DNA from: a virus
Direction: 5' to 3' (one strand)
IMG/VR virus record: IMGVR_UViG_3300035670_000159
Location: 7,182 to 71,181 of that record
Length of the DNA: 64,000 nucleotides
Program-made: the position numbers and the translations under genes
Shown: one piece after another, positions 19,226 to 26,157 of the stretch
Layout: every line of letters begins with the position of its first letter
Position numbering within the stretch: the first letter of the stretch is position 1
Notes under the pieces: model-generated
Database searches by the model: none
Told to the model about the DNA's origin: nothing
Seen by the model: the letters and a program-made list of their open reading frames with translations, nothing else

Positions 19226-21394
19226 ATGAGTAATAAAGACGTGATTTATGACTTGGAAACCTACAAGAACTGTTTTACATTTACCATTGCTTTAGCTAAT
19301 AACCCAGCAAAGATTCGTACCTTTGAAATCTCTGATCGAAAAGATGACACCGAAGAAATGCTGAAGTGCCTTCGTAATCTCATGAACCAAGGGTGGCGAA
19401 TGGTTGGATTCAATAACATTGGATTTGACTATCCTATTCTTCATGAGATTATGATGAAAGCTGCTAAGGCTAAGTCCGAAGGGGTAAAGCCTAAGTTCAC
19501 AGCTAAGTGGATTCAGAAGCTAGCACAAGAACAGATTAACTCCACGAAAGACGGAGGGTTTCCCAAGATTGTTAAAGATGAATTGATTCCGCAAGTTGAT
19601 TTGTATCTAATTAACCACTTCAATAACAAGGCTAAGGCTACTTCTCTGAAGATGCTTGAAGTCAATATGCGAAGTGAAAACGTAGAGGATTTACCATTTC
19701 CTTTTGATAAGGTTCTGACTTCAGATGAAATGGATATCTTGATTAAGTACAACCAACATGACGTGCTTCAGACTATGAAGTTCTATAACTACTGCAAGGA
19801 CGCTTTACAACTTCGTGAAGAACTCACGGAGAAGTTCGGGTTTGATTGCACGAATTACAACGATACGAAGATTGGTTCAGAGTTGTTTATTCGTACTCTT
19901 GAGAAAGAGCAACCGGGTAGTTGCTATGAGCAAACTTCTAGAGGTAGGAAGATGCGTCAAACAAAGCGAGATAAGATTGCTTTGAAAGATTGTCTTTTCT
20001 CTTATATCAAGTTTAACCGACCAGAGTTTCAGGCTGTTCATGAATGGTTTAAGACTCAAGTTATTACTGAAACAAAAGGAGTGTTTACTGATCTTCTTGA
20101 GCATAGACTAGGGGATGTAGCTAAGTATGCAGAAATGCTAACCAAGAAGAAGAAGATTAGTAATCCTGCTGATAATAAAGATAAGAAGTATGTACCTACA
20201 GAAAGTCACATTGCTAAGTTGCGCAAAGAACAGCCTCTTGGGTGGGTGGAAGAGAAAGAACTGAAGTCCCCTAAAGGAGCTAAGTCTTACTATTGGTGCT
20301 ATCGTATTGCTGAGACTCTGAATGTGGTCATTAATGGCTTCAGATACGACTATGGTGTTGGAGGAATTCATGGTGCAAAACAAGGTATTGTTCGGACAGA
20401 AGGTGACAAAGTGTTACGAACATTAGATGTTTCATCTTTTTACCCCAACATGGCAATTAGTAATAATCTACATCCTGCACACCTTGGAACAACGTTTTGT
20501 AGAGTGTATAAAAGCCTCTACGACGAAAGAAAGAGTCATCCTAAAGGCTCAGGTGCCAACGCTGCTCTGAAGCTTGCTCTGAATGCCTCCTATGGCAATA
20601 GTGCGAATGAGTTTAGTCCACTTTATGATCCAGCTTACACAATGGCTACTACAGTAGGAGGTCAACTTTCTTTGTGCATGTTGATGGAGAGATTGATTGA
20701 TGAATGTAGTGCAGAAATTATCATGTGTAACACTGATGGTTTTGAGTACTTGATTGATAAATCCTATATTGATAAAGCGGATTCTTTGGTGAAGGAGTGG
20801 GAAAATACTACTAAGCTAGAAATGGAAGGCGATACTTATGCTGTGATGTATATTGCAAACGTGAATAATTATATTTCGATAACTACTTCTGGTAAGGTAA
20901 AGACAAAGGGAGCATATGAAATTCCCGATTACAAAAAGGAAGGTTATAAAAATATCGCTTTTGAAAAACATGGTTGGCATAAAAACCACTCTGCTTTTGT
21001 CATTCCTTTAGCTGCAGTGGAGTTTCTTGTTAACGATAAACCTATTGAATACACAATCATGAATTGGGATAACCCTTACGATTTTTTGTTGAGAACTAAG
21101 GTTCCTCGTAGTAGTCGCTTAGTTTTGTGTTATGATGATGGGAGAGAAGAACTTCAACAAAATATTTGTAGGTACTATCCATCTGTCAATGGTGGAAAGT
21201 TAGTAAAAATTATGCCACCCTTGGAGCAAGGTGGGGAAGAGCGACGATTAGGTATTGACACTGATTGGAATGTGCAAACATGTAACAATATTAAGGATTT
21301 TACATGGAATCTAAATTATGATTACTACATCAGTGAAGCAAATAAATTAGTTAATGCTATAACAATAGGAGGAGATATAGTTGAAATGGAATGA
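19226..21394 (+). CDS. family B DNA polymerase with 3'-5' exonuclease
   Basis: ExoI YDLET; DVSSFYPN, KLALNASYG, CNTDG polymerase motifs. Confidence 0.92.
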   Translation: MSNKDVIYDLETYKNCFTFTIALANNPAKIRTFEISDRKDDTEEMLKCLRNLMNQGWRMVGFNNIGFDYPILHEIMMKAAKAKSEGVKPKFTAKWIQKLAQEQINSTKDGGFPKIVKDELIPQVDLYLINHFNNKAKATSLKMLEVNMRSENVEDLPFPFDKVLTSDEMDILIKYNQHDVLQTMKFYNYCKDALQLREELTEKFGFDCTNYNDTKIGSELFIRTLEKEQPGSCYEQTSRGRKMRQTKRDKIALKDCLFSYIKFNRPEFQAVHEWFKTQVITETKGVFTDLLEHRLGDVAKYAEMLTKKKKISNPADNKDKKYVPTESHIAKLRKEQPLGWVEEKELKSPKGAKSYYWCYRIAETLNVVINGFRYDYGVGGIHGAKQGIVRTEGDKVLRTLDVSSFYPNMAISNNLHPAHLGTTFCRVYKSLYDERKSHPKGSGANAALKLALNASYGNSANEFSPLYDPAYTMATTVGGQLSLCMLMERLIDECSAEIIMCNTDGFEYLIDKSYIDKADSLVKEWENTTKLEMEGDTYAVMYIANVNNYISITTSGKVKTKGAYEIPDYKKEGYKNIAFEKHGWHKNHSAFVIPLAAVEFLVNDKPIEYTIMNWDNPYDFLLRTKVPRSSRLVLCYDDGREELQQNICRYYPSVNGGKLVKIMPPLEQGGEERRLGIDTDWNVQTCNNIKDFTWNLNYDYYISEANKLVNAITIGGDIVEME

Positions 21395-22001
21395 GTATTT
21401 TTATTACGATGAAACAAGCCCAACAGGTTTGAGATGGAACAGAGATGTTTTTGCTGGTAGAACAGGTAAAAGTAGAATTGTTGCAAAAGGTGATGTAGCA
21501 GGAAACTTGGCGACCTATAAGAACGGTCTACCAAAATGTGTTGATGTTGGGTTTAACAATAAATTAGTTAAAGCACACAGAATAATCCATGAAATGTTGA
21601 TTGGAGAAATACCTAAAGGATACGTTGTGGATCACCTCGACCAGAATCCTTGGAACAACAAAGTTGAAAATTTATGTGCAAAACCAAAAGCCTTGAACCA
21701 CAGAAACACTAAAATGATTGCCACGAATACTTCTGGTGTTACAGGAGTAAGTTGGCAAACAATGAACAAAGGTAAGCACACTTATGCCGTGGGTGAAGTA
21801 AGGTTAAATGGGAAAAATTTCTCCGCACGTTTCGGTGTTCATCACTATGGGCTTCTTCCAGCTTTCAGGTTAGCATTCTTGTGGCGTGAAAACAAAATTA
21901 AGGAACTCAATGAAAAATTTGATGCTGGTTTTACTGAACTTCATGGTGTAGAATGCAAACACACTTCCACTACTTGTACAACTCCGAATTCTCCTGTATA
22001 A
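21381..22001 (+). CDS. free-standing HNH homing endonuclease with AP2-like C-terminus
   Basis: AHRII...VVDHLDQNPWNNKVENL...N; NTSGVTGV. Confidence 0.88.
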   Translation: MKWNEYFYYDETSPTGLRWNRDVFAGRTGKSRIVAKGDVAGNLATYKNGLPKCVDVGFNNKLVKAHRIIHEMLIGEIPKGYVVDHLDQNPWNNKVENLCAKPKALNHRNTKMIATNTSGVTGVSWQTMNKGKHTYAVGEVRLNGKNFSARFGVHHYGLLPAFRLAFLWRENKIKELNEKFDAGFTELHGVECKHTSTTCTTPNSPV

Positions 22002-22002
22002 T
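21974..22002 (+). promoter_or_regulatory. sigma70-type promoter at 3' end of HNH gene
   Basis: TTGTAC-17-TATAAT. Confidence 0.7.
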
Positions 22003-22024
22003 CAAACTCAGTGACTCAGGAACA

Positions 22025-22120
22025 GAACTCCAGCGAATCAGCATCCCTCGGTCTGACCTGATGAAACTTGCTCTGGTTTGCTGGGAGAGTTCGATTGATA
22101 AACTTGATACCGAAAGGGAG
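22025..22120 (+). ncRNA. candidate structured 5' leader (long hairpin with loop complementary to the RBS)
   Basis: GAACTC/GAGTTC plus 11-bp CAGCGAATCAG/CTGGTTTGCTG stem with G-U pairs; loop TCCCTCGGT vs ACCG(AA)AGGGA. Confidence 0.5.
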
Positions 22121-22124
22121 TAAA

Positions 22125-22517
22125 ATGATTCTTTACCATGCTGGACTATCAAAGATCAAGAAGTTCGACTTGTCCAAAGGTTGTCACTTTGGAAGTAAAG
22201 AGTCGGCACTAGAGGCTGCTCTAAGAAAAGTTGAACTCTTTGCAGAAGCAGCAATCTACTTGCACAAGGTCAGTGTCCCTGATGAGGTCATGCGTACATA
22301 TGAGACATTTGATGCAGGTTGCGAGGAAAACTGGAAATCTGTGATAGAATTCGCTGTTCTTTCTGGTCACAACTCAGTTAAATACATGAATAAGTACGAA
22401 CCTAGTTCTTGCCCTAGCTTTATCCTGCTAGAAGAATTGACTGATTGTGTAGTCTTAGAATCTGTAGTCACATACAATAGCGGCGACGTTGAGCAATATT
22501 TGACTACGTGCTTTTGA
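22125..22517 (+). CDS. hypothetical protein, possibly ADP-ribosyltransferase fold
   Basis: AGGGAG RBS; ILYHAG...GCHFGS...YMNKYE pattern. Confidence 0.55.
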   Translation: MILYHAGLSKIKKFDLSKGCHFGSKESALEAALRKVELFAEAAIYLHKVSVPDEVMRTYETFDAGCEENWKSVIEFAVLSGHNSVKYMNKYEPSSCPSFILLEELTDCVVLESVVTYNSGDVEQYLTTCF

Positions 22518-22523
22518 AAGAGA

Positions 22524-22775
22524 GTGATGCACAAGTACCAACAAAAGATTTGGACAAAACAGAGTCCTCGTGATAAGATGATCAGGAACCGTACTTTCGG
22601 TGTAACCCCAGGTTGCATCCCTGATCCAAAGAAAGGTTACAAACGATTTGAACGCTGGCTTAAACGTCCTCGGAAAGCTATTGAGTTGTATTGGCGAGTA
22701 CGAGGGGTTAAGACTTGGCGTGATATGCAAGGACGCAACGTGGTTGCGGCTGCTCTGTGTAATGGCTTACATTGA
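22524..22775 (+). CDS. basic hypothetical protein
   Basis: K/R-rich ORF in operon. Confidence 0.55.
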   Translation: MMHKYQQKIWTKQSPRDKMIRNRTFGVTPGCIPDPKKGYKRFERWLKRPRKAIELYWRVRGVKTWRDMQGRNVVAAALCNGLH

Positions 22776-22805
22776 AGTAGCAAAAATACAACACAGTAAA
22801 AAAGA

Positions 22806-22835
22806 TTGCACAGAGTAAAGTGCTTGTGCTATAAT
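22806..22835 (+). promoter_or_regulatory. sigma70-type promoter for the tRNA locus
   Basis: TTGCAC-18-TATAAT with TG extension, 9 nt before tRNA 5' end. Confidence 0.75.
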
Positions 22836-22844
22836 TCAGGTTAT

Positions 22845-23382
22845 GCAACAGTAGCTCAGAGGTGAGAGCAGAGAAGAAGTAGGAGGAGGAATTGAAAAGA
22901 AAACAAGCAGAATACCCATACAATGATTTTTGGATTTATAAGGTTTGGCATAAACAAGAAGGAAGATGGCAAGCCAATCTGATTAGAAAATCAAACACAG
23001 ATGATAGAACAACTATTTCGTATGCACGATATGTGCTGTCGGTATTTTTAGGTAGAATTTTAGATTCTAAAACCGAGCACGTAGACCACATAGACAATGA
23101 TAAATCTAACGATTCAATAGAAAATCTTCAGATTCTTACCCCAGAGCAGAATAAAGAAAAACAAGAGTTATTGTACAGGTCGCTAAACCCAAAATTTATA
23201 GTGCTAGACTGCTACGTTTGTGGTGCAAAGTTTAACTACATAGCTCGAAATTTTAAATTTCACCAGAGTAAAGGAAGGTATAAGTTTTATTGTTCTAAGG
23301 ATTGTGTCCATGAAAATTTACGAAACAAAACACTAGTATAGTATTTCTTTGGCCGTCTGTTCGATTCAGACTTGTTGCACCA
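22845..23382 (+). tRNA. interrupted tRNA (Thr-like); halves 22845-22875 and 23345-23382 separated by 469 nt in place of the anticodon loop
   Basis: acceptor GCAACAG/TTGTTGC + A + CCA; D arm GCTC-AGAGGTGA-GAGC; anticodon stem GAGAA/TTCTT; T arm GTCTG-TTCGATT-CAGAC. Confidence 0.85.
22892..23341 (+). CDS. HNH endonuclease with C-terminal zinc finger, inside the tRNA anticodon loop
   Basis: EHVDHIDNDKSNDSIENLQILTPEQN; CYVC...YCSKDC; AGGAGG RBS, TTG start. Confidence 0.88.
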   Translation: MKRKQAEYPYNDFWIYKVWHKQEGRWQANLIRKSNTDDRTTISYARYVLSVFLGRILDSKTEHVDHIDNDKSNDSIENLQILTPEQNKEKQELLYRSLNPKFIVLDCYVCGAKFNYIARNFKFHQSKGRYKFYCSKDCVHENLRNKTLV

Positions 23383-23388
23383 AGTTAT

Positions 23389-23474
23389 GCGAGTATGATG
23401 GAATAGGTAGTCATACCGGATTTAAAATCCGATGCCTTTTAGGCGTGCCAGTTCGAGTCTGGCTACTCGCACCA
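23389..23474 (+). tRNA. tRNA-Leu(TAA)
   Basis: GCGAGTA/TACTCGC-A-CCA; loop TT-TAA-AA; long variable arm; GTTCGAGT T loop. Confidence 0.92.
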
Positions 23475-23497
23475 AGGTTTTAATGAAAGGAAATAAC

Positions 23498-23869
23498 ATG
23501 ACACGATTGATTTCAATCAAAGCAGTATCTGAACTGCCAGAGGCTTTTAAGGATAAGGTATCCTTTCAAGTCGTAGATAATAACGTAGAGGCTGTAGTGA
23601 TTACTCTAGGAGAAGAAACTCTACGGATTGTCGGCACTGATACCTACAGTAAAAATGTAAAGGTTCTAAAGACTCAACCTAAGAAGGAAGTCACTAAGTA
23701 TAAGCTCAGTGGTATTGTTGGAGGTCTTACGATGCAACCTGAGATGTTTGATTCTGAACACGAAGCTGACGAGAAACGTAAGAGTTATGAATACAAGTTT
23801 AACTTCGGTGAAGTCGAGTTGAAGATTGAACCTGTAGTAGAATACGTAGACGAAGAAAAGATTTCCTAA
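23498..23869 (+). CDS. hypothetical protein
   Basis: GAAAGGA RBS before MTRLIS; the longer ORF-track start overlaps tRNA-Leu. Confidence 0.75.
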   Translation: MTRLISIKAVSELPEAFKDKVSFQVVDNNVEAVVITLGEETLRIVGTDTYSKNVKVLKTQPKKEVTKYKLSGIVGGLTMQPEMFDSEHEADEKRKSYEYKFNFGEVELKIEPVVEYVDEEKIS

Positions 23870-23877
23870 TCGGAAAA

Positions 23878-23945
23878 GAAGTTCGTGATCTTCCTTAAAA
23901 TCACATTTTTAAAACTTAACTAACTCTGACAAGGAGAAAATTACA
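23878..23945 (+). promoter_or_regulatory. candidate H-type pseudoknot and AU-rich translational operator of SSB
   Basis: S1 GAAG/CTTC, S2 GTGAT/ATCAC, then unstructured AU-rich leader to RBS. Confidence 0.45.
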
Positions 23946-24602
23946 ATGACACAAGAAACACAACCACAAACCATCTCTGGTGTATTTGCTTACGCAAAGA
24001 TTCAAGAGCCTGCGTTTAAGTACCAGAGCACTACCGAAAAGGAATTCTCGATTGACATTATAGTAGACAAGGCGACCGCTAAGGCTTTCGGTAAGCAGTT
24101 CCCCAAGCAGAAGGGTAAACAAGTTGATAACGATGACTTTGAGGAAATCTACAAGATGCCTCCTCCATTTCCTGACCAAGACGAACAGTATGTTCTAAAG
24201 CTGAAGCGCCCTGCTCAATACAAGGACGGTAAGCCTCTTCCAGAATCTTACTGGCCGAAGGTCATGCAAAAGAAGGGCGGTAAGGCTGTTCAGATTCCTC
24301 GTGAAGTTCTGGTTGGTAATGGCTCTACTGGTAAGGTTTCGTATGATGTTAACGAGAACGATTACGGCACCTTTGCAAAGCTCAAGAACATTCTTGTTGA
24401 AGATTTGAAGGAGTACAAGAAGACTGGGGGCAGTGGTGCTGATGACTTCGGCTTGGAGCTTGAAGAACCTACTGCCGATGAGTTTGGTTCTGCTGATGAT
24501 GGCGAAGGTAATGAAGTGAAGGTGCCTGCAAAGGCTGTTAAGACTTCTACGAAGGCTAGTAAGAAGAGTGCTGAACCAGAAGAATCGGACAGCCCCTTCT
24601 GA
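23946..24602 (+). CDS. single-stranded DNA-binding protein (T7 gp2.5-like)
   Basis: FAYAKIQEP...VGNGSTG; acidic tail ending EESDSPF; replication context. Confidence 0.8.
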   Translation: MTQETQPQTISGVFAYAKIQEPAFKYQSTTEKEFSIDIIVDKATAKAFGKQFPKQKGKQVDNDDFEEIYKMPPPFPDQDEQYVLKLKRPAQYKDGKPLPESYWPKVMQKKGGKAVQIPREVLVGNGSTGKVSYDVNENDYGTFAKLKNILVEDLKEYKKTGGSGADDFGLELEEPTADEFGSADDGEGNEVKVPAKAVKTSTKASKKSAEPEESDSPF

Positions 24603-24710
24603 TGCGATATAAAGCCCCTTAAAGGCACTTTCTAGGCCAGGTAATACCCTTGCCTACCTAGATTACTTAAAAGGGCTGGTAGAGCGTTTTAAAGCGTTCT
24701 AGGGCCTTCT
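24603..24710. repeat. dispersed helically phased element, copy 3
   Basis: TTAA/CTAG/GTAG at 24619, 24632, 24667, 24679, 24689, 24699 around core GGTAATACCCTTGCCTACC. Confidence 0.6.
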
Positions 24711-24712
24711 AT

Positions 24713-24786
24713 CCTCGGTTATCATAACTGGACAATGAACGAATCTTCTAAATTCGACTATACTCGTTCAAATCGAGTACCGAGGG
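24713..24786 (+). tRNA. tRNA-Arg(TCT), CCA not encoded
   Basis: CCTCGGT/ACCGAGG; CGAAT-CTTCTAA-ATTCG; ACTCG-TTCAAAT-CGAGT. Confidence 0.85.
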
Positions 24787-25111
24787 CAGAGGGTCTTAGA
24801 ACTAAAATATTTGAAAGGAGAAATCAAATGAATAAAATCTGGGTAGTAACACAACGAGGTATCCCAATCATGGCGTATAATCAATCTGAAGTAACTCCAC
24901 TTGAACTGTGGGAGAAGCATTTGGGTTGTTCTGTGTTTGATGTTGAAGTTCAATAAGGAGGTTTAGATGAAATATGTAGCTAAGTTCGTAAATGGATATT
25001 GGGTTTCGTTTAACACAGAAACTTACGAGAACACACAAGTCTTTTATCTGCGTAAGGATGCAGAAGAAGCTGTGAAGAAGATGAATAGTAACCAACGAGG
25101 AGGTAAGTGAT

Positions 25112-25303
25112 ATGCAAAAGACTATCCAACGAAAGCCCATTACAGCATGGGCAGTAGAAATTGACGGAACCTTGGAGGACTTGGCTGTGATTCCTACACG
25201 AGCAATGGCACGACAAGTGCGAAATCAACTTATCAAGTACGATCCGGTGATTACAAAAGCTACGGTGCGTAAGGTTGTTCTGCAAGTTGTACCGGGGCGT
25301 TGA
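25112..25303 (+). CDS. hypothetical protein
   Basis: AGGAGG RBS. Confidence 0.7.
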   Translation: MQKTIQRKPITAWAVEIDGTLEDLAVIPTRAMARQVRNQLIKYDPVITKATVRKVVLQVVPGR

Positions 25304-25608
25304 TCATGAGTGAGATTCTCAAGACCATTCTGTTGAAAGACGAAGAAGAGGCTAAGTACTTTGCATGGGGTGATCATCAGGACTTTGACATTGTAGAAAC
25401 CGTTAAGGACTATGACGCTCTTTATAAGGATTACTGTCCTGCAACTACAATTGCAAAGCATATTGAAACTGGTAAGTTCTATGCTCTTGATTGGGATTCT
25501 TATGAAAGCCACTACGGTTGTGGAGAGAACATGTTCAATGAACTTTCTGTCTATGAAGTAGAGCAACAAGAAGAAGTCCGAGTAACTAAAACATGGGTGG
25601 CAGTTTGA
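25300..25608 (+). CDS. acidic hypothetical protein
   Basis: coupled ORF. Confidence 0.7.
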   Translation: MIMSEILKTILLKDEEEAKYFAWGDHQDFDIVETVKDYDALYKDYCPATTIAKHIETGKFYALDWDSYESHYGCGENMFNELSVYEVEQQEEVRVTKTWVAV

Positions 25609-25785
25609 CTAACTACGAAACATTTGTTCTGACAATTGGATATATCGCTTTCATCTTGTTCATCCTTGCTGTGATTGGTATCGGTGGTGTACTGACGGTT
25701 ATTGCAGCAGGGATTGCTTTGGTGGGGTATTATCCGATTAAGGTGTTTGGCTGGCTTGATGGTAAGCTTTTAAGAAAGGAAATAA

Positions 25786-25989
25786 ATGAAATACGTTGCT
25801 GTTATTGGTGCTTTGGTTGTGCTGCTTGGGGTTATTATTGCAGGCCCATTGTTGACCATTGCCTCGTTGAATACGTTGTTTGGTTTGAACATCGCCTATA
25901 CACTAGGAACTTACTTTAGTGTTATGTGGCTTAACCTTGCTACCTTCGGTGGTTTGGGTTTGTCGATTCGTAGTTTGAAGAAGGGTTGA
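25786..25989 (+). CDS. small membrane protein
   Basis: two hydrophobic segments; GAAAGGA RBS. Confidence 0.7.
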   Translation: MKYVAVIGALVVLLGVIIAGPLLTIASLNTLFGLNIAYTLGTYFSVMWLNLATFGGLGLSIRSLKKG

Positions 25990-26157
25990 TATGTTTACAC
26001 TAAAAGATTTTGTAATTGCTTTCGAAAAGTGGGAGAATGATTACCGAGTTAATCCCACTAACTACTACACGCCAGATGAAACAGCAGGATTGGAAGTCAG
26101 TGCTGTGTCTGTCGGTCGTGCTGAATATTTTATGGATTTGTTGACTGAAAATAAGGA

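What the first reader, a model, noticed from the sequence alone, without database searches (positions are those of the whole stretch)
22806..23474. A tRNA whose anticodon loop is an entire HNH-nuclease mRNA, with no intron ribozyme
Seen: promoter, then a complete 5' tRNA half (22845-22875), 16 nt containing AGGAGG, a 149-aa HNH/zinc-finger ORF, 3 nt, and a complete 3' half ending in CCA (23345-23382), followed by intact tRNA-Leu. All four stems still pair. Only 19 non-coding nt lie in the insert, too few for a group I/II core, and I see no clear bulge-helix-bulge. AGTA falls in anticodon register at both junctions (GA-AGTA-G and AT-AGTA-T). G1-C72, C2-G71 and NGU are known Thr identity elements. 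Inference, alternatives: (a) a new minimal protein-spliced tRNA intron or homing element; (b) a tRNA-scaffolded mRNA matured by RNase P, tmRNA-like in layout but with its own RBS; (c) split halves as a decoy or sensor for anticodon nucleases; (d) a recent inactivating insertion.
Basis: partly seen in the sequence, partly recalled or inferred. Interest (0 to 1): 0.9.

Follow-up and report, generated by a model that had tools for sequence, protein, structure and literature searches.

The report
Selfish nuclease gene splitting phage tRNA
A mobile DNA-cutting-enzyme gene with no self-splicing RNA has replaced the anticodon loop of a phage tRNA gene and most likely just switches off a dispensable tRNA, because related phages in wastewater still carry the unbroken gene.

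Summary
A 5' tRNA half (22845-22875), a 469-nt insert that is almost entirely a 149-aa HNH endonuclease ORF (22892-23341), and a 3' half ending in CCA (23345-23382) lie behind a promoter-like site and ahead of tRNA-Leu(UAA). No group I/II core was found, although the same scan recovered group I introns in two control loci.

Contigs of public runs show the unbroken allele. One joins 22875 to 23345 with seven letters, CTCATAA, so the tRNA reads CAU (Met or Ile2), not Thr. A DNA run shows the same loop.

Two further contigs with the filled allele (L012, L013) match the insert at 467/469 and 469/469 nt. Their 5' halves match at only 27/31 and 27/32, as expected after recent homing.

Of 55 near-full-length homologue loci, 38 have a tRNA gene within 100 nt. 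A few others are also split (L065 clearly; L019, L040, L047 probably).

Best reading (about 0.8): a ribozyme-less, free-standing homing endonuclease gene sits directly in a dispensable tRNA gene and borrows its promoter. Protein-mediated splicing, a decoy role and a selected "tRNA-shell mRNA" are unsupported.

This scan has noted the same layout on other DNA. I found it in none of seven paper searches.

The parts
22807..22835 (+). Sigma-70-like promoter of the tRNA operon (TGCACA, 17 nt, TATAAT, with TG before the -10). It is the only promoter-like site ahead of the nuclease gene.
   Evidence: 10 of 12 positions match. The block is conserved in L012 and L013 while the upstream DNA is unrelated. 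Function is inferred.
22845..22875 (+). 5' half of a tRNA(CAU) gene: acceptor strand, D arm and the 5' strand of the anticodon stem.
   Evidence: Joined in silico to the 3' half through the 7 letters seen, it is called as a 76-nt tRNA-Met(cat) and folds as a cloverleaf at -21.7 kcal/mol.
22876..23344 (+). 469-nt mobile insert that stands in place of the 7-nt anticodon loop.
   Evidence: a joint 22875->23345 skips 469 nt, with CTCATAA in between; 467/469 and 469/469 identical in L012 and L013, against 27/31 and 27/32 for the 5' half.
22881..22889 (+). Shine-Dalgarno-like AGGAGGAGG ahead of the TTG start.
   Evidence: Read from the sequence. The start is fixed by the conserved MKR N-terminus in 20 aligned homologues.
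22892..23341 (+). HNH homing endonuclease gene, 149 aa. The stop codon TAG lies 3 nt before the 3' stem strand.
   Evidence: The D-H, N and N residues of the HNH motif and four Cys are invariant in alignment A1.
23345..23382 (+). 3' half of the tRNA(CAU) gene: anticodon-stem strand, variable loop, T arm, acceptor strand and ACCA.
23389..23474 (+). Intact tRNA-Leu(UAA), the next gene of the same operon. It is not part of the insert.
   Evidence: Rfam tRNA at 52.9 bits.

Best explanation
A free-standing HNH homing endonuclease gene with no intron ribozyme sits directly in a phage tRNA(CAU) gene. Its 469 nt stand exactly where the 7-nt anticodon loop stood.

Inferred steps:
- The enzyme cuts the unbroken tRNA gene of related phages during co-infection.
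- Repair copies the nuclease gene, with a little flanking sequence, into the break.
- The filled allele is immune because its target is interrupted.
- The tRNA is lost, which the phage tolerates because phage tRNA genes are accessory.
- The nuclease has no promoter of its own. It is transcribed from the tRNA operon promoter and translated from its own ribosome-binding site and a weak TTG start.
- The two halves can still pair (acceptor stem and T arm), so RNase P and 3' processing may trim the transcript. That would be a by-product.

Shown here: the anatomy, the absence of a ribozyme, the unbroken allele, the near-identity of the insert within diverged flanks, and the family's habit of living next to tRNA genes.

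Not shown: the cleavage, the homing and the fate of the RNA.
For: (1) Unbroken allele., table 5 and 5c: in run X15 one contig joins 22875 to 23345, skipping 469 nt, with CTCATAA between the sides. In DNA run X13 a contig end lying before 23345 reads a tRNA 5' half ending in ...CAGAGAA followed by CTCATAA. Window halves plus these 7 letters give a canonical 76-nt tRNA(cat).

(2) The insert looks like a minority form. In one search, table 2, depth over 22876-23277 is 15 (X5) and about 6 (X13). Over 22742-22875 it is 184 and 149.

(3) Homing signature. Window against L012 and L013: insert 467/469 and 469/469 identical; 5' half 27/31 and 27/32; promoter block 59-77%; upstream DNA unrelated. Fisher p is 2e-4 and 8e-7.

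(4) No ribozyme, with positive controls in L036 and L026. The 538-nt RNA folds no better than shuffles (z = -0.82).

(5) The enzyme looks active. HNH_3 scores above its cut-off, and the catalytic and zinc-binding residues are invariant in 20 homologues of 50-89% identity.

(6) The family lives at tRNA genes. Of 55 near-full-length homologue loci, 38 have a tRNA within 100 nt, 11 have the ORF end overlapping the tRNA, and 19 have a tRNA(CAT). Only 14% of positions in those loci lie that close to a tRNA. Three of five cultured-phage loci looked at show the same.

(7) The record is rich in such genes: 5 HNH_3 ORFs in 71 kb.

(8) Precedent. T4 SegB lies in the tRNA cluster and recognises a tRNA T-psi-C motif (PMC2330249, abstract and passages). 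SegB homologues associate with tRNA genes (PMC13096335, abstract and section 10). Seven free-standing T4 endonucleases are promoter-less cassettes using upstream promoters (PMC2988022, passages).
Against: The joint contig in X15 has only 27 letters on its shorter side and was laid at 85% likeness. The tool warns that such joints can come from other organisms, so it shows a relative's allele, not this phage's own ancestor. X15 is an RNA library.

Depths sum all contigs laid and are not allele frequencies.

None of the 7 loop letters survives recognisably at either junction (2 of 7 and 3 of 7 matches). The event was therefore a replacement, not a clean insertion, and I cannot say how it arose.

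All four stems of the window copy still pair. In L012 only pair 1-72 is broken, and in L013 a shifted register still gives 4 of 5 anticodon-stem pairs. Decay of the halves is slight.

L065 is a 41%-identical homologue in another tRNA with all stems perfect. L019 is a 62%-identical homologue followed at once by a diverged 3' half. These show the layout recurs, which could also mean it is kept for a reason.

Nuclease activity and target were not tested.
Confidence: 0.8

Rival explanations
1. tRNA-shell messenger. The split tRNA is kept because it serves the nuclease gene. The paired halves would recruit RNase P and 3' processing or CCA addition, giving a defined mRNA with closed ends whose stability or dosage is tuned by the shell.
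For: The acceptor stem and T arm form in both the minimum-energy and the centroid fold of the 538-nt RNA. The only promoter-like site ahead of the gene is the tRNA promoter. The stems are largely kept in window, L012, L013 and L065. The SegB paper discusses transcript processing in tRNA clusters as a brake on endonuclease expression (PMC2330249, passage).
Against: Most family members manage without a shell: 38 of 55 sit beside whole tRNA genes. The three near-identical filled alleles give no power to see selection on the stems. L012 has lost pair 1-72, next to the RNase P site. There are no RNA ends data, because all four runs laid were contigs.
Confidence: 0.1
2. A new protein-dependent tRNA intron. 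Host or phage enzymes would cut out the 469 nt and ligate the halves into a working tRNA, read by the first reader as Thr with an AGU anticodon.
For: The halves are intact, and AGTA stands in register at both junctions. The layout recurs in L065. Earlier notes of this scan describe many ribozyme-less inserts in phage tRNA genes (unchecked leads).
Against: The unbroken allele reads CAT, and no CAT lies at either junction, so splicing could not restore it. The record, estimated 91% complete, has no RtcB, no Rnl2-type ligase and no tRNA splicing endonuclease, with working controls. Bulge-helix-bulge-like geometry is at chance level: 2 found, and 88 of 1000 shuffles give as many. No such splicing is known in bacteria or their phages (established knowledge). 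The only joined form seen carries letters that the filled allele lacks.
Confidence: 0.03
3. Decoy or sensor. The loop-less tRNA body would soak up or report host tRNA-cutting defence nucleases.
For: Phage tRNAs are known to counter tRNA-targeting defences (PMC13096335 abstract; the PMC11464382 abstract start as shown in the search listings).
Against: The anticodon loop is gone, and the one defence nuclease read about here (Septu, PMC13096335 abstract) cuts the variable loop of a different tRNA. Nothing in the sequence or in relatives points to this role. The unbroken allele appears to be the commoner form in the wastewater contigs.
Confidence: 0.02
4. Assembly artefact. The halves and the nuclease gene were joined wrongly.
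For: By the tool's 31-letter rule, none of the listed run contigs bridges both junctions (table 8).
Against: Two further metagenome contigs, L012 and L013, have different upstream DNA yet carry the same two junctions. Run contigs from other studies reach across single junctions: X5 22846-23343, X13 22867-23359 and X17 23168-23366.
Confidence: 0.01

Closest known systems
T4 SegB and other free-standing homing endonucleases that move by 'intronless homing'. The F-Tfl HNH enzymes of the T5 tRNA region belong here too, cited through PMC2330249 and PMC10644984; I could not read the 2004 Akulenko paper itself.
   Same: A selfish nuclease gene in a phage tRNA cluster, present or absent among close relatives, probably targeting tRNA gene sequence, promoter-less and riding on an existing transcript. 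SegB recognises the T-psi-C motif of tRNA genes (PMC2330249, abstract and passages).
   Different: SegB is a GIY-YIG enzyme and lies between tRNA genes, leaving them whole. Here an HNH_3 enzyme lies inside the gene, in place of the anticodon loop, and destroys it.
Group I introns in bacterial tRNA anticodon loops, with or without an endonuclease ORF, such as cyanobacterial tRNA-Leu(UAA) and tRNA-fMet. These names are recalled. Examples seen here: L036 3239-3550 and L026 4031-4733.
   Same: Same landing place (the anticodon loop) and the same logic: the mobile element interrupts the nuclease's own target.
   Different: Those carry a catalytic core that Rfam detects (39.1 and 38.6 bits, E about 1e-6) and they restore the tRNA. 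This insert has 19 non-coding nt, no core and no anticodon to restore.
The 'tRNA-Stop interrupted by ~2.5 kb' reported in Vibrio phage pVa5 (PMC5746245, abstract and passages).
   Same: A phage tRNA-like gene found only when ARAGORN is allowed long inserts.
   Different: That report rests on ARAGORN alone, and its authors say it may be an artefact. Here an unbroken allele, three filled contigs and a defined mobile gene support the call.
Earlier notes of this scan on other DNA (e1-5959873, e1-4046720: a ribozyme-less nuclease gene in a phage tRNA(CAU); e1-5327122 and others: nuclease plus spare tRNA cassettes).
   Same: Same layout and the same reading. L040 and L047 here look like the cassette form, with a whole tRNA inside the insert.
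   Different: In this window no spare CAU tRNA comes along. The record has only Leu(taa) and Arg(tct). A look-up by this protein's sequence found no look-alike stretch among the scan's earlier windows.

Membership tests
Pfam HNH_3 (PF13392) / PHROG 14913 homing endonucleases | Profile match above the curated cut-off, with the H-N-H catalytic residues present. | tested here: met
   33.9 bits against a cut-off of 24.8, E 2.3e-8. phrog_14913 at 1.3e-29 over residues 5-147. D65, H66, N78, N87 and four Cys are invariant in 20 sequences.
Free-standing homing endonuclease gene (intronless homing) | Presence or absence of the gene at the same site in close relatives. | tested here: met
   A joint 22875->23345 with a 7-letter loop in X15 and the same loop at a contig end in DNA run X13. 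Low depth over the insert in X5 and X13.
Free-standing homing endonuclease gene (intronless homing) | The gene is more alike between genomes than its flanks, showing recent lateral spread with short co-conversion. | tested here: met
   Insert 467/469 and 469/469; 5' half 27/31 and 27/32; promoter block 59-77%. Fisher p 2e-4 and 8e-7.
Free-standing homing endonuclease gene (intronless homing) | The enzyme cuts the empty allele and is over-inherited in crosses. | not testable with these tools
   Needs purified protein and mixed infections.
Group I (or II) intron in a tRNA gene | Conserved catalytic RNA core. | tested here: not met
   No intron family at E<=10 in 21000-26000 or at gathering score in the whole window. 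None at E<=0.01 in L012, L013, L065, L040, L047 or L054, while L036 and L026 gave group I hits in the same call.
Group I (or II) intron in a tRNA gene | Removal of the insert restores a working anticodon loop. | tested here: not met
   The unbroken loop is CTCATAA. Neither junction holds CAT.
Archaeal/eukaryal protein-spliced tRNA intron | Bulge-helix-bulge at the exon-intron junctions. | tested here: inconclusive
   2 loose geometries found (G-U pairs allowed, purine-rich against pyrimidine-rich strands). 88 of 1000 shuffles give as many.
Archaeal/eukaryal protein-spliced tRNA intron | Splicing endonuclease and RNA ligase available. | tested here: not met
   PF01974, PF01139 and PF09414 are absent from the record, with working controls. 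The PF09511 search had no working control. The host genome is unknown.
tmRNA | tRNA-Ala-like domain with G3-U70, and a tag ORF entered without a start codon. | tested here: not met
   ARAGORN, which also looks for tmRNA, reports none. Pair 3-70 is A-T, and the ORF has its own ribosome-binding site and TTG start.

The most novel reading that the evidence does not exclude
Ribozyme-less endonuclease genes in tRNA anticodon loops may be a stable class of mobile element rather than accidents. In that reading the tRNA halves are kept as an RNA-processing and end-protecting shell for the nuclease mRNA. In some lineages the halves might even be rejoined by cellular RNA repair enzymes.
Probability: 0.08. 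Interest if true: 0.75.

Novelty: new variant of a known kind. Interest (0 to 1): 0.4.

Why it matters
Homing endonuclease genes are thought to need an intron, an intein or an intergenic spot so that they do not kill their host gene. Here one sits bare inside an RNA gene. It is tolerated, presumably because phage tRNA genes are dispensable.

Together with the family's strong attachment to tRNA genes, this suggests that such nucleases drive gain, loss and turnover of phage tRNA genes. These are the same genes that phages use against tRNA-cutting host defences.

It also warns annotators: split tRNA genes are invisible to default tRNA finders. The filled and empty alleles found here make a simple homing assay possible.

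Tried and rejected
**Searches for close relatives that found nothing**
- Megablast of 22700-23600 against phage records gave no match.
- Exact searches of IMG/VR for the 5' half, the 3' half and the L012 version of the T arm plus acceptor each gave 0 matches.
- A search with the upstream ORF 22068-22514 found no relatives.
- Six loci found through the SSB-like protein hold no tRNA like the split one.
- None of the 139 tRNAs in the homologue loci matches the rebuilt tRNA at more than 52 of 73 positions, the usual level between unrelated tRNAs.

**Contigs I could not reach**
I could not test whether diverged inserts keep paired halves.

**Other negative or unusable results**
- A PDB sequence search with the family profile gave no hit at E<=0.01.
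- ARAGORN on the five cultured-phage loci fetched (Bestia, Bas91, TC6, CBB, B9) found no split tRNA, only chimeric calls.
- RNA runs X15 and X17 hold contigs over the nuclease gene. Contigs in RNA libraries do not show transcription, so I draw nothing from them. Parts without cover are not used as evidence either.
- The PF09511 search had no working control.
That neither confirms nor refutes it.

**Readings rejected**
- Thr identity, because the loop is CAT.
- tmRNA-like layout.
- Bulge-helix-bulge intron, because the geometry is at chance level.

**Papers.** Seven searches found no description of a bare endonuclease gene inside a phage tRNA anticodon loop. Subscription journals, including the 2004 T5 F-Tfl paper, and all supplementary files were not seen and may bear on this.

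Full report
**What is there**

The window is 64 kb of a single 71,181-nt virus record. The record encodes a T7-like primase-helicase and DNA polymerase, ribonucleotide reductase, an 1800-aa tape measure protein and a portal protein. It has no near relative among 50,697 phage records.

- a 5' tRNA half (22845-22875);
- 16 nt holding AGGAGGAGG;
- a TTG-started ORF of 149 aa (22892-23341);
- 3 nt;
- a 3' tRNA half ending in ACCA (23345-23382).

tRNA-Leu(taa) follows six nt later. The ORF is an HNH_3 endonuclease (E 2.3e-8, above the Pfam cut-off). It is a full-length member of PHROG 14913. Twenty homologues of 50-89% identity all begin MKR, which fixes the TTG as the start. They keep the HNH residues and four cysteines.

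**Is it more than chance?**

On 230 kb of related loci read backwards it called none, against 59 on the real sequences.

**No ribozyme**

Rfam finds no intron family here at E<=10 or anywhere in the window at gathering score. The control is good. Two ORF-less split tRNA-Leu(taa) genes in related loci (L036 3239-3550, L026 4031-4733) gave group I hits of 39.1 and 38.6 bits (E about 1e-6, below the gathering score of 50). The nuclease-bearing inserts of L012, L013, L065, L040, L047 and L054 gave none in that same call.

The 538-nt RNA folds no better than shuffles (z = -0.82), though its ends pair as acceptor stem and T arm. Bulge-helix-bulge-like geometry is at chance level. The record encodes no RtcB, no Rnl2-type ligase and no tRNA splicing endonuclease. 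The Rnl1 search had no working control.

**The unbroken allele**

Twenty listed public runs from 11 studies hold the stretch or part of it, mostly wastewater. I laid 21000-25000 on contigs of two DNA runs (X5, X13) and two RNA-library runs (X15, X17) at 85% likeness.
- One X15 contig joins 22875 to 23345, skipping 469 nt, with seven letters between the sides: CTCATAA.
- In DNA run X13 a contig end lying before 23345 reads a somewhat different 5' half that ends with the same stem strand and the same seven letters.
- So the joined form exists as DNA in relatives. It is an allele, not a splicing product, and the filled allele does not even contain those letters.
- The window halves plus the seven letters are called as a 76-nt tRNA-Met(cat) and fold as a cloverleaf. 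Whether it is a Met or an Ile2-type CAU tRNA I cannot tell.

Depth over the insert is 15 and about 6 in the DNA runs, against 184 and 149 just upstream.

Caveats: the joint's shorter side is 27 letters, depths sum all contigs laid, and every run was contigs.

**A mobile gene**

Two metagenome contigs (L012, L013) carry the filled allele. Against the window, the insert is identical at 467/469 and 469/469 positions. The 5' half is identical at only 27/31 and 27/32, the promoter block at 59-77%, and the DNA upstream of it is unrelated. Fisher p is 2e-4 and 8e-7. An identical nuclease gene within diverged flanks is what recent homing leaves behind.

The halves are not perfectly kept. L012 has lost pair 1-72. 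L013 has a changed 5' stem strand that pairs 4 of 5 only in a shifted register.

**The family lives at tRNA genes**

Of 55 near-full-length homologue loci from IMG/VR and metagenomes, some of them near-duplicates:
- 38 have an ordinary tRNA gene within 100 nt of the ORF;
- in 11 the ORF's end overlaps the tRNA's start;
- 19 have a tRNA(CAT).

Only 14% of positions in these loci lie that close to a tRNA. A profile scan of IMG/VR returned 22 loci. I examined the 13 best matches (L083-L095), and all but L085 showed a tRNA close by. In cultured phages CBB, Bestia and Bas91 the homologue also abuts a tRNA. TC6 and B9 show none.

**Other split cases**

- L065 (the same contig as L095) holds a 41%-identical homologue in a 393-nt insert in the anticodon loop of another tRNA. 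All four stems are perfect and the stop codon lies in the 3' stem strand.
- L019 comes from a phage with the same SSB-like gene. Its 62%-identical homologue is cut by the contig end, and its stop codon is followed at once by an orphan, diverged 3' tRNA half.
- L040 and L047 have orphan halves with 7 of 7 acceptor pairs around an insert that holds the nuclease gene plus a whole tRNA. L054 is weaker. L050 and L060 have an orphan 5' half only. These last five rest on ARAGORN alone.

**How it most likely works**

See Best explanation. The nuclease gene is a promoter-less cassette that uses the tRNA operon promoter, as seven free-standing T4 endonucleases use upstream promoters (PMC2988022, passages). 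It probably cuts the unbroken tRNA gene of co-infecting relatives and is copied into the break. The loss of an accessory tRNA is tolerated. Why all seven loop letters were replaced, rather than split, is not explained.

**Compared with what is known**

The closest match is T4 SegB, with 'intronless homing' generally. SegB targets a tRNA motif and associates with tRNA genes (PMC2330249; PMC13096335 section 10), but it lies between genes.

Group I tRNA introns share the site but not the ribozyme.

Seven paper searches found no account of a bare endonuclease gene inside a phage tRNA anticodon loop. A 2017 phage paper reported an ARAGORN-only 'interrupted tRNA-Stop' and called it a possible artefact (PMC5746245).

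This scan has noted the same layout on other DNA. Those are unchecked leads that agree with my reading. One group of them describes inserts that keep the anticodon and carry a conserved RNA helix, which I do not see here.

**Verdict**

It is a new variant of a known kind and of moderate interest.

Noticed in passing
L036/L037 3239-3550; L026 4031-4733: tRNA-Leu(taa) genes split by ORF-less inserts of 236 and 614 nt. Both give Rfam group I intron hits (39.1 and 38.6 bits, E about 1e-6, below gathering score). They lie in phage-like contigs that also carry this HNH family.
   Followed up: partly
L001 3429-3519 (same contig as L084); L002, L014 and L087 just after the HNH stop codon; L028, L029, L035, L038 and L044 just before the HNH start: A 91-100-nt tRNA-like gene with a long variable arm and a TAT anticodon abuts or overlaps the nuclease ORF. 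ARAGORN misses it in L002, L014 and L087. A long-arm tRNA with this anticodon is unusual.
   Followed up: partly
window 24713-24787: ARAGORN calls a tRNA-Arg(tct) with a clean cloverleaf (C1-G72, D stem TCAT/ATGA). Rfam's tRNA model does not report it even at E<=10.
   Followed up: partly
window 21381-22001, and the whole record: A second HNH_3 gene with an AP2-like tail also has low depth in the wastewater contigs (about 12, against 150 or more beside it). The record holds 5 HNH_3 ORFs in 71 kb.
   Followed up: partly
window 22068-22775 and 23498-23869: Contig joints 22118->22776 and 23476->23862 in two runs each suggest that these small ORFs are missing in some relatives. The tRNA region is a mosaic.
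   Followed up: no
L012 751-779: 29 extra nt stand between the -10 box and the tRNA start. They are absent from the window and from L013.
   Followed up: no
L065 2397-2410: The 5' junction of the split tRNA carries CTAGGAT twice in tandem (stem strand plus two loop letters). This may be a trace of how the insert arrived.
   Followed up: no
Rfam gives no hit there at E<=1, which does not settle it.
   Followed up: partly
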